Source of the DNA: the human T2T-CHM13v2.0 reference genome, Homo sapiens
Direction: 5' to 3' (one strand)
NCBI RefSeq assembly: GCF_009914755.1
Contig: NC_060931.1
Length of the DNA: 64,000 nt
Below, piece by piece: positions 21,347-23,983 of the stretch (positions are counted from its first letter, which is position 1; every line of letters begins with the position of its first letter). A program made the translations under genes and the position numbers. The notes under the pieces were generated by a model. It saw only the letters and a list, made by a program, of their open reading frames with translations, did not search any database and was not told the DNA's origin.

Positions 21347-21733
21347 AGCTGGGTGAGGTGGCTCACACCTGTAATCCCAGCGCTTTGGGAGGCTGAGGCA
21401 GGTAGATTGTTTGAGCTCAGGGGTTCCAGACCAGCCTGCGCAATAAAGTGAGACTCTGTCTCTCAAAAAAATACAAAAATTAGCTGGACGTGGTGGCACC
21501 TATAGTCCTAGCTACTCTAGAAATAGCTACTCTAGAAAATATTTGCAAATTACATATCCGATAAGGTGTATCTGATAAAGCTTTTTCTTTCCATTGCAAG
21601 GGTAATGGTGAGGTGGGAGGTTGAGGTGGGAAGATTGCTTGAGTGTGGGAGGCAGAGGTTGCAGTGAGCTGAGATCCTGCCACTGCGCTCCAGCCTAGGT
21701 GACAGCCAGGCCCTGTGCCAAAAAAAAAAAAAA
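21347..21733 (+). mobile_element. AluJ carrying a ~95-bp templated insertion in its right arm
   Basis: Alu consensus breaks after gctactc (~21517) and resumes at gggaggttgagg (~21614). Confidence 0.88.
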
Positions 21734-23083
21734 TTGTTTAACTCTATGCTTAACCTTTTCCATTAGCAGTTTCTACCAGCAAAATAAATCTTTTCCACCA
21801 CCACCAAATATTTTTCCGCATCTTTGTCAACACTTGTTCTTGCTGTCTTTTTAAATTTTAGCCACTCTGTTAGGTGTGATGTGGTATCTCATTGTGGTTT
21901 TGATTTTCATGTCCCTGATGGCAAATGGTGTTGAGCATAGTTTCATGTGCTTATTGGCCATATGTTTACCTACCTTGGGGAAATGTCGATTCAGACCCTT
22001 TGCTAACGGTTTTAATTGGGTCATTTTTTAAAAAAAATTATTAAGTTGTAAGCGTTTATCAGATATGCCTTATCAGAAATGTAATTTGCAAATATTTTCT
22101 CCCATCTTATGGGTTGTCTCTTTACTTTCTTATGGTGTCCTGTGAAGGACACATACACATGTGCTCGCTCTCTCTCTCAAAACTTTTGGACCAAAGAGGG
22201 AAGTAAAACTGTGATTTATTAAGCAGCCCCTTGAAGGGTAACAGCACATTTTTGACCACTTTGTATGTTGGTGCCAGCCTGGGGTGCCCCAGGTAGGTGC
22301 TCCCTTGGGGTGTCTGCTTCAAGGATGCTGTGAAGGTAGGGCTTCTCCAGCTGGGAAACCATGGAATAGTTGGCAGCTGCTTTGTACGTCTTGAGAGACA
22401 AAAGAGAGAAAGCTCAAAATCAAGAGCAGACACTGGATTTGCACTGAAAAGAAATATATCATTTCCTTGAAGAGAGAAATACAAGATGTGAAAAATGGAA
22501 GCAAGGAAAGAAGAGATATAAGGAAAGAGAGATTAGAACACCAACTGCTGTAGATCATTTCATGTCCCAATTATCCCCAAGTTCTTCCACCTTCTGGGAT
22601 CACCAGCTGTTTTAACACCCAAAATAACTCTCACTCTTTTCCCACATAAATGTGTTAAGTCCAGGGCTGTCCCTACTCTGTCTGAGGAGTTCTGGGGCAG
22701 AAGGCAAATTGGGGACTCTCTCGCCGAAACCTGTCCCCAGCCCCTCCGTGACCATCTTTGGGCACATTCTTGCCCCCTCTCCATGTTTCTGTGGCCCCTG
22801 GCTTGCTCCAGAACATTCCTCCAGCCCTCCCTCGAGTGTGCTTTCCAGGCAGGCACACCACAGGCATTACTGAAGGTTTGGAGGTGTTGGAGGGGGGTTC
22901 AGGAACTTGAGTATTTGACATCGCGTCCTTGAGCTCACCTCCCATCTACAGCACGGAGGGTCTCCGGCCACTTCTCCTTCGACCCAGGCCAGCTGCCTCG
23001 GTGCTGCCCCCTCTTCCTCCCAAGACCTTTATTCCCTGCCCACCGAAACCCCAGCTTCCCCAGTCCCCAGGCCACCTACTCAC

Positions 23084-23177
23084 CCTCTCTGCAGCATAGC
23101 TCCTCAGAAAATGGACGTTGTCTTCCTTTGCCCCAGCCACCTCATTCAAACTGTGTCCTGGGCCTCAACTTCCACAA
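23084..23177 (-). pseudogene. Candidate 94-nt upstream exon with a probable 1-nt frameshift
   Basis: Acceptor ctgccttttCAG and donor GAGG|GTGAGT. Restoring one T gives VEVEAQDTVLNEVAGAKEDNVHFLRSYAAER. Confidence 0.35.
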
Positions 23178-23241
23178 CTGAAAAGGCAGCTAATATCTTT
23201 TTATCAAGCAAAGACCTATCCGGAAGTTGCCATCTTTGGCA

Positions 23242-23271
23242 ACACACACACACACACACACACACACACAC
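23242..23271. repeat. (CA)n microsatellite
   Basis: Read directly. Confidence 0.95.
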
Positions 23272-23412
23272 CCCGGCCAAACCTTCAAAGTTACTACTTC
23301 TTTAACTGTTTAAAGTGATGTCGAAGATAGTTTTGGTCAGAGCCTCAGGCCAGAGCACCTGGGCTTTCTCCTCTGAACAAGTTTCTGTCAGTAAAAGTGA
23401 AAGAAGAAAGTG

Positions 23413-23565
23413 TCTGAAATCCCAGCTACTCCGGAGGCTGAGGCAGAAGAATCGCTTGAATCCGGGAGGCGAATGTTGCAATGAGCCGAGATCGTGCCAC
23501 TGCACTCCAGCCTGGGCGACAGAGCAAGACTCTGTCTCAAAAAAGGAAACAAACAAAAAAAAGAA
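23413..23565 (+). mobile_element. 5'-truncated AluS (right arm only)
   Basis: Starts ctgaaatcccagctactc; flanking repeat aagaaagtg. Confidence 0.85.
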
Positions 23566-23983
23566 AGTGAATTGGCCACCTTTTCAGAGCAACCCCGTGG
23601 GCCAGGGCTTTTTCCTTCCATCGCAAGGGAAATGGTGAACTTGGCGGGTGGGGTTGGAGGCAGTGGTCCAGATATGTGATGAATGCCTCGAAAAGAAGTG
23701 AACATTGCCTCATTTCTTCCTTCTGGAGTGCTGTCCGTAAGAGTTTCCGAGGCCATTGGTAGCTGCAGAACCCCTTTTGAAATAAAATCTTATACAAGCC
23801 CCAGTATACAAAGGCAGGTAAAAAGGGAGCTAGATTGGTTTGGGGGACTTTGAGAAATCTTAGCTGATGGATTTTACAATGTTGTTAAAATGCCCAGTGA
23901 AGAGAGAAAGGCATGTGAATTCATCTTCCAAAGCCCATGGTGAAATGTGAGACAAAATATCCACTCTAAAAAATTAGCAATCA

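What the first reader, a model, noticed from the sequence alone, without database searches (positions are those of the whole stretch)
21509..23638. Two-template DNA-repair insertion inside an AluJ
Seen: the Alu breaks after gctactc and contains three added pieces. First, a 15-bp tandem duplication TAGCTACTCTAGAAA (21509-21523 / 21524-21538). Second, 21534-21583, an inverted copy of 22050-22100 with 4 substitutions (three explicable by CpG decay) and 1 indel, including that site's local ttatcaga duplication. Third, 21580-21611, a direct copy of unique DNA at 23607-23638 (29/32 identical). The two copies overlap by a GCTT microhomology, and the Alu resumes through a repeated tgaggtggga. Established: short templated inserts with microhomology are signatures of Pol-theta end joining or template switching. 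Inference: an old germline break was repaired by copying from 0.5 kb and 2 kb away.
Basis: partly seen in the sequence, partly recalled or inferred. Interest (0 to 1): 0.7.

Follow-up and report, generated by a model that had tools for sequence, protein, structure and literature searches.

The report
Ancient two-template repair scar in Alu
A 97-base patch inside an old Alu repeat is stitched together from copies of DNA lying 0.5 and 2 kb away, likely left by one germline repair or replication error, probably tens of millions of years ago; it is real but a familiar kind of mutational scar, with no sign of function.

Summary
The insert is real. Bases 21518-21614 (97 bp) interrupt an AluJ-like element with no Alu base lost. 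They hold a 15-bp-period duplication, an inverted copy of 22055-22100, a direct copy of 23607-23638 and a 3-nt re-copy of the right flank. The local donors are the best matches found genome-wide. The insert also sits in three chr7 paralogues (57.3, 64.5, 64.7 Mb; 8-9% diverged) that share only window 21349-22626, so it predates that duplication, and the window is the source. Best reading: one germline event of repeated template switching, closed by a Pol-theta-like step. The two long, distant tracts are atypical for Pol theta. The insert is probably younger than the Alu (p 0.03-0.13). This is a new member of a known class (multi-template local insertions). Side finding: the 1.28-kb block is the middle piece of a SEPTIN7-span/window/chr20 chain at a segmental-duplication junction, with homogeneous divergence, as expected of one event.

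The parts
21334..21347 (+). Left target-site duplication of the Alu (14 bp). The later segmental-duplication switch likely falls inside it (TAACT, 21340-21344).
   Evidence: Same 14-mer follows the poly(A) tail exactly in 2 of 3 paralogues; the whole left copy exists only in the window
21348..21517 (+). AluJ-like element, part 5' of the break
   Evidence: Self-blast; alignment with 109 other Alus; subfamily label recalled
21509..21538 (+). 15-bp-period tandem duplication spanning the Alu/insert junction (14 bases shared by both lineages)
   Evidence: present in all four copies
21534..21579 (-). Piece A: inverted copy of donor A (46 nt)
21580..21611 (+). Piece B: direct copy of donor B (32 nt; 33 nt if the paralogues' G at 21579 is ancestral)
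21609..21620 (+). Re-copy of the Alu's right flank (template 21622-21633): 3-bp TGA overlap with piece B, net 3 added bases (21612-21614), 6-bp overlap with the resumed Alu
   Evidence: 10-nt exact match in the window; 12 nt with the paralogues' base at 21632. An alternative 10-nt template lies at 21352.
21615..21746 (+). AluJ-like element resumed with no base lost, poly(A) tail and right target-site duplication
   Evidence: Gap-free alignment across 21517|21615; TSD
22055..22100 (+). Donor A, inside the old L1-type fragment that the Alu interrupts; carries a private shortened, 14-bp-period stretch that the insert shares
   Evidence: Not seen in any of 26 unrelated L1 copies; L1 label recalled
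23607..23638 (+). Donor B, single-copy DNA
   Evidence: 23555-23970 has 1 match in the genome, itself
21349..22626 (+). 1,278-bp block later copied to chr7 57.34, 64.47 and 64.68 Mb, between a SEPTIN7-span piece and a chr20 piece

Best explanation
A 97-bp insertion interrupts this Alu without deleting any of it and is built from copies of two nearby sequences, likely made in one germline event in which a broken or stalled DNA end switched template several times before it was likely sealed by a Pol-theta-like step. Inferred order (read left to right; the opposite strand would give the same product): the end at 21517 copied 46 nt of the opposite strand 0.5 kb downstream; jumped with little or no microhomology to copy 32 nt from 2 kb downstream; annealed by TGA to the Alu's right end 7 nt in and copied 9 nt; then released and re-annealed through the 6-nt microhomology it had just made. 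The 15-bp duplication is an aborted first round or later slippage. The event probably came after the Alu had inserted and, as the paralogues show, before the block was duplicated. It is a neutral scar in an intron of lncRNA LOC105375233. Shown: anatomy, donors, no Alu loss, order relative to the duplication. Inferred: single event, order of steps, enzyme (Pol theta for the last step about 0.5), absolute age.
For: Both donors are the best matches found genome-wide and both lie within 2.1 kb. The shuffle null is far from the observed matches. The Alu aligns gap-free across the break. The last junction has the published direct-repeat pattern: a short primary microhomology, a short tract from the other end, and a longer secondary microhomology (PMC7165422 passages). 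All parts are present in all four copies. Insertions with two or more locally duplicated pieces are a documented human germline class: 191 of 1,651 complex deletions, with 871 (53%) showing a template within 10 kb (PMC4617611 section 9). Insert-donor divergence before the duplication is 0.0135 per site (95% 0.001-0.046), against 13/211 = 0.062 for the Alu.
Against: The A-to-B junction has no secure microhomology: it is blunt if the window's base at 21579 is ancestral, or 3 bp through a slip inside donor A's repeat if the paralogues' base is. The Alu-to-A junction is unexplained: donor A is entered just after GGG, so the Alu's next bases GGGAG would have been a 5-bp primer, but the product has a single T in place of GGG in both duplicated units. 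Tract lengths and distances are atypical for Pol theta. The age gap to the Alu is not decisive: p = 0.029, rising to 0.063-0.134 if 2-4 of the 13 shared differences come from the unknown source gene; exact tests give about 0.06. No pre-insertion allele was available; the uninterrupted state is inferred from other Alus.
Confidence: 0.75

Rival explanations
1. The pieces were added in separate events at the same spot over time (insertion of A, insertion of B, then slippage duplications).
For: The A-B junction lacks secure microhomology. The 15-bp duplication spans an already formed junction and could be later slippage. A second short inverted local copy in the same window shows that single-piece events are not rare.
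Against: Two independent kb-range insertions would have to land at the same base. All four copies carry the full set, and both pieces have similar divergence from their donors (4/46 and 3/32).
Confidence: 0.12
2. The insert formed during the Alu's own integration, by the L1 reverse transcriptase or host repair jumping between Alu RNA and neighbouring genomic DNA.
For: A break with exposed local DNA exists at integration (established knowledge of target-primed reverse transcription). A 7-nt match links the insert's start (21514-21520) to the left TSD (21342-21348), seen by eye and not tested. The age test is not decisive.
Against: The Alu has both ends, a poly(A) tail and a clean 14-bp TSD. The insert is mid-element and would need jumps off and back onto the RNA at the same base. 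The point estimate makes the insert younger than the Alu.
Confidence: 0.08
3. Pure Pol-theta end joining made every step, including the two distant copies. (A narrower version of the best explanation.)
For: The last junction fits. Long inserts from several rounds and rare distal templates are reported (PMC7165422 passages). Piece A is AT-rich (about 74%, counted by hand).
Against: Distal templates were under 0.1% of repair products and primary tracts rarely over 10 nt in that study. Two of the three main junctions lack clear microhomology.
Confidence: 0.25
4. The matches are chance or repeat-family similarity, or the insert belongs to an Alu or L1 subfamily.
For: Donor A lies in a high-copy L1-type fragment (788 candidates), and the genome search scores only the best candidates.
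Against: The insert shares donor A's private feature, absent from 26 of 26 other copies. Piece B has one non-paralogous match in 3.1 Gb, 2 kb away. Only 4 loci carry the insert, all one duplication family.
Confidence: 0.01

Closest known systems
'Ins with MultiDup and Del' complex variants of the 1000 Genomes phase 3 map (PMC4617611; section 9 read)
   Same: Inserted DNA made of two or more duplicated pieces, templates within 10 kb, germline, attributed to template switching.
   Different: Those are polymorphic deletions with inserts. Here nothing is deleted, the event is ancient, and the A-B junction lacks secure microhomology.
Pol-theta templated insertions (TINS) in theta-mediated end joining (PMC7165422; passages)
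   Same: The last step copies a short tract from the other end and rejoins through a longer, newly made microhomology; several rounds; direct and inverted pieces.
   Different: Typical templates are within 30 bp and tracts rarely over 10 nt; here 46 and 32 nt from 0.5 and 2 kb.
FoSTeS/MMBIR template switching (established knowledge; cited in PMC7025897 passages)
   Same: Serial switches to templates at kb distance, change of strand, return to the original template.
   Different: Very small scale, no copy loss, and microhomology is not evident at two junctions.
Short-range template switches in great-ape genomes (PMC7954356; passages)
   Same: Germline template-switch mutations fixed in primate evolution (4,017 events reported).
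   Different: That model covers one reverse-orientation switch within 100 nt among hominids, and the paper says small non-local switching remains unresolved. This event is multi-template, kb-range and older.
Chains of templated insertions in cancer genomes (PMC7025897; passages), for the later 1.28-kb block
   Same: 2-7 templates from distinct regions strung together, with a small template linked to one of any size.
   Different: Here germline, ancient and since amplified to three copies; a single event is inferred only from homogeneous divergence.

Membership tests
Locally templated multi-piece insertion (template-switch class) | Inserted bases match templates within 10 kb better than any other site | tested here: met
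   the search for piece A scored only 14 candidates
Locally templated multi-piece insertion (template-switch class) | Two or more templates in one insert | tested here: met
   donors 22055-22100 (inverted) and 23607-23638 (direct), plus the right-flank re-copy
Locally templated multi-piece insertion (template-switch class) | Microhomology at the switch points | tested here: inconclusive
   3 bp and 6 bp at the last two junctions; none secure at Alu-A and A-B
Locally templated multi-piece insertion (template-switch class) | Single mutational event (no intermediates) | not testable with these tools
   no primate orthologues held; all 4 human copies carry the full insert
1000 Genomes 'Ins with MultiDup and Del' | Accompanying deletion | tested here: not met
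   Alu aligns gap-free across 21517|21615
Pol-theta TINS (TMEJ) | Template typically within about 30 bp, tract rarely over 10 nt | tested here: not met
   met only by the last 9-nt tract; pieces A and B are 46 and 32 nt from 0.5 and 2 kb
Pol-theta TINS (TMEJ) | Resolution through a newly synthesised, longer secondary microhomology | tested here: met
   3-bp primary, 6-bp secondary at 21609-21620; an alternative template at 21352 is not excluded
Pol-theta TINS (TMEJ) | Dependence on POLQ | not testable with these tools
   needs a cell experiment
Short-range template switch (four-point model) | One reverse-orientation template within 100 nt | tested here: not met
   inverted template is 475 nt away; definition
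Alu or L1 subfamily-diagnostic insertion | Present in many dispersed, independently inserted copies | tested here: not met
   4 copies, all sharing flanks as one duplication family; absent from 109 other Alus
AluJ | J-type diagnostic bases and high divergence | tested here: inconclusive
   Shares the minority state at two diagnostic columns (19 and 12 of 109); 22/211 non-CpG differences from the majority of 13 such copies, equal to their mean of 10.4%. The name J is recalled; no repeat library was on hand.
Chain of templated insertions (later 1.28-kb block) | Several templates from distinct regions joined in one derivative locus | tested here: met
   SEPTIN7-span piece, window block and chr20 piece joined end to end in 3 of 3 paralogues
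Chain of templated insertions (later 1.28-kb block) | Formed in one event | tested here: inconclusive
   divergence homogeneous across pieces (p 0.20 non-CpG, 0.92 all sites), which events a few million years apart would also give

The most novel reading that the evidence does not exclude
The locus holds two nested fossil template-switch events. After the 97-bp scar formed, the same Alu became the short middle template of a one-step chain (at least 7.5 kb from the SEPTIN7 span, inverted; 1.28 kb from 185 kb away; 1.05 kb from chr20) that founded a pericentromeric chr7 duplication family. If so, a mosaic human segmental duplication was assembled in a single replicative event of the kind described in cancer genomes, not by stepwise accretion, and such paralogues give dated snapshots for rebuilding ancient repair junctions.
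Probability: 0.5. Interest if true: 0.5.

Novelty: new member of a known kind. Interest (0 to 1): 0.3.

Why it matters
Taken alone it is a neutral intronic scar of a documented class. A second, simpler one lies 18 kb away in the same window, so such scars are probably common. Its value is as a clean worked example. The Alu supplies the pre-insertion sequence and the paralogues supply a dated snapshot, which shows that junction microhomology read from one modern genome can be an artefact of later mutation. It also falls in the small-scale, non-local class that a great-ape survey left unresolved. The duplication chain around it, if one event, bears on how mosaic primate segmental duplications are assembled.

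Tried and rejected
GCTT microhomology: rejected as likely post-event mutation. Snap-back from the Alu's left end as the source of the first inserted bases: 21480-21517 folds (z -2.3), but extension from that stem would not give the observed bases, and 21490-21545 folds no better than shuffles (z 0.0). Alu resumption by a 7-bp deletion plus a later 13-bp tandem duplication: disfavoured, because the base between the two repeats is the ordinary Alu base in the paralogues and other Alus. The paralogues as empty-site or source loci: rejected, since they carry the insert but lack donor B and the intact left TSD. The 1.28-kb block as an Alu-driven 3' transduction: rejected, as there is no poly(A) or TSD at its ends and its two flanks come from different chromosomes. 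A simple insertion of the block into one recipient locus: rejected for the same reason. The junction from the chr20 piece into an older chr7 family (83-87% matches at 55.9, 66.2 and 67.1 Mb) was not resolved because that source was not read, and the far end of the SEPTIN7-span piece was not reached (it runs at least to 35,990,000). A paper on micro-insertion template distances in 1000 Genomes deletions (Abyzov 2015) is not held and was not read. No earlier scan findings were seen. A literature search with SEPT7P, duplication, chromosome 7 and 7q11.21 listed 15 of 7,474 papers, none with the term SEPT7P; a search on duplicon junctions and template switching listed 12 papers, none on this locus by title or abstract start. 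These two searches do not show that the duplication is undescribed. No supplements were read.

Full report
Observation. With 21518-21614 removed, the Alu aligns without a gap to 109 other full-length Alus taken from the window and the fetched loci, so this is a pure 97-bp insertion. It consists of a 15-bp-period duplication across the left junction, an inverted copy of 22055-22100 (4 mismatches in 46), a direct copy of 23607-23638 (3 in 32), and three bases (21612-21614) best read as a re-copy of the Alu's right flank. In 3000 shuffles of each piece the best match within 6.2 kb never had fewer than 9 (32-mer) or 15 (46-mer) mismatches.

Genome-wide test. The whole insert has 4 full-length matches in the genome: itself and three chr7 loci at 89-92%. 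Among the 10 partial matches the local donor A is best (67 bits); two are the paralogues' own donors and seven are unrelated repeat copies at 55-57 bits. That search scored only 14 candidates, so it is not exhaustive. Independent support comes from a private feature: donor A is shortened and has a 14-bp-period stretch that the insert shares and that none of 26 unrelated copies has (these 26 come from the 40 scored of 788 candidates). For piece B, a search with up to 3 mismatches returns 5 places in 3.1 Gb: the four inserts and the donor 2 kb away, with 0 for the reversed control. The DNA around donor B is single-copy.

Paralogues. The three other copies share only window 21349-22626. They include donor A but not donor B, and lack the intact left copy of the Alu's 14-bp target-site duplication, so the window is the source. 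They differ from the window by 8.0-9.0% (5.9-6.7% at non-CpG sites) and from each other by 1.9-3.0% in this block. The insert is therefore older than that duplication. They also expose later mutations. At 22053 all three have A where the window has C, and of 26 unrelated copies 6 read TAAGAGTT and none TAAGCG. The A-B junction is then blunt if the window's base at 21579 is ancestral, or has a 3-bp overlap through a slip inside donor A's repeat if the paralogues' base is; this cannot be polarised here. Of the four substitutions between piece A and its donor, two are decay of one CpG, one is a window-only change in the insert, and one is an older non-CpG change shared by all donors.

Junction logic. 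The right end is the clearest. Piece B ends in TGA, which also occurs 7 nt into the resumed Alu. Copying 9 nt from there and re-annealing the new 6-nt end to the very start of the right flank gives the observed sequence with no loss. This is the direct-repeat pattern described for Pol theta, in which aborted synthesis makes a longer secondary microhomology (PMC7165422, passages). A 10-nt match at 21352 is an alternative template. The same paper puts typical templates within 30 bp, primary tracts rarely over 10 nt and distal templates under 0.1% of products, so pieces A and B look more like fork-level template switching. The left end is unresolved. Donor A is entered just after GGG, and the Alu's next bases are GGGAG, which would have been a 5-bp primer; but both duplicated units carry a single T in place of GGG. 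This may be chance (roughly 1 in 60-120 for three bases, my estimate) or a trace of further processing. Folding gave no support for a snap-back origin.

Dating. Against the majority of 13 non-redundant J-like Alus (14 before dropping one paralogous duplicate), this Alu has 13 changes shared by window and paralogues, 8 window-only, 16 paralogue-only and 1 differing in both, in 211 usable non-CpG sites. Insert versus donors gives 3 non-CpG differences not assignable to the post-duplication insert branches, an estimated 0.0135 per site before the duplication (95% 0.001-0.046), against 0.062 (0.033-0.103) for the Alu. A joint likelihood test gives p = 0.029, weakening to 0.063 and 0.134 if 2 or 4 of the 13 changes belong to the unknown source gene; exact tests give about 0.06. 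So the insert is probably, not certainly, younger than the Alu. With recalled primate divergence rates, about 4% per branch puts the duplication near 30-40 million years ago and the insert at or somewhat before that; no call calibrates this.

The later duplication. In all three paralogues the block is preceded by DNA from chr7:35,982,505 to at least 35,990,000 in inverted orientation, inside the annotated SEPTIN7 span and 185 kb from the block. It is followed by 1.05 kb from chr20:2.973 Mb and then by an older chr7 family. Inferred microhomologies are 5 bp on the left, inside the Alu's TSD, which needs one later substitution and a 2-bp loss, and 3 bp on the right. Divergence from the three sources is homogeneous (p = 0.20 non-CpG, 0.92 all sites, one paralogue, four segments). 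This resembles the chains of templated insertions in cancer genomes (PMC7025897, passages). A single event is inferred, not shown.

Comparison and verdict. Germline insertions built from two or more local templates are documented: 191 of 1,651 complex deletions in the 1000 Genomes map, with 53% of sites having a template within 10 kb (PMC4617611, section 9). Short-range switches fixed in ape evolution number in the thousands, and that study leaves small non-local switches unresolved (PMC7954356, passages). A scan of this window for short low-copy repeat pairs gave 4 of 1,568 self-matches: the two pieces here, one pair of old repeat fragments 13 kb apart, and a second 33-bp inverted local copy, which suggests such scars are common. 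The insert lies in an intron of a lncRNA by the supplied annotation, and nothing seen suggests function; function was not tested. Papers seen only as search listings. PMC6451188 was read in passages and added nothing. Verdict: a real, new member of a known kind, interest 0.3; the nested duplication chain is the more interesting lead.

Noticed in passing
window 39105-39137 and 40532-40564: A second short inverted local copy: 33 bp, 31/33 identical, 1.4 kb apart, E 4e-9 within the window. The 39105 copy abuts a (TTCA)n run at the start of a dispersed repeat. Likely another single-piece templated insertion; direction not determined.
   Followed up: partly
G000:C7:57341813-57343101, 64468792-64470105, 64675948-64677256: Three paralogues of window 21349-22626, each joined on the left to chr7:35,982,505-35,990,000 or beyond (minus strand, inside the annotated SEPTIN7 span) and on the right to chr20:2,972,926-2,973,979 (minus), then to an older chr7 family. 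Inferred microhomologies: 5 bp at the left junction (needs one later substitution and a 2-bp loss) and 3 bp at the right.
   Followed up: partly
window 22055-22077: Donor A itself carries a small deletion with a short local repeat relative to 26 other L1 copies, a possible older end-joining scar.
   Followed up: partly
window 22257-22384: 128 bp of the block match chr7:153.54 Mb at 87% (E 1e-35), outside the duplication family; a low-copy repeat or another copied fragment.
   Followed up: no
window 21349-21722 versus paralogues: Since the duplication the Alu gained 16 non-CpG changes in the paralogue lineage against 8 in the window lineage (211 sites), some clustered; not tested for significance.
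   Followed up: no
L015/L017 (chr7 57.333-57.334 and 64.460-64.461 Mb): About 1 kb of a young high-copy repeat (97-98% to many loci) sits in the SEPTIN7-span piece and lies in opposite orientation in two paralogues.
   Followed up: no
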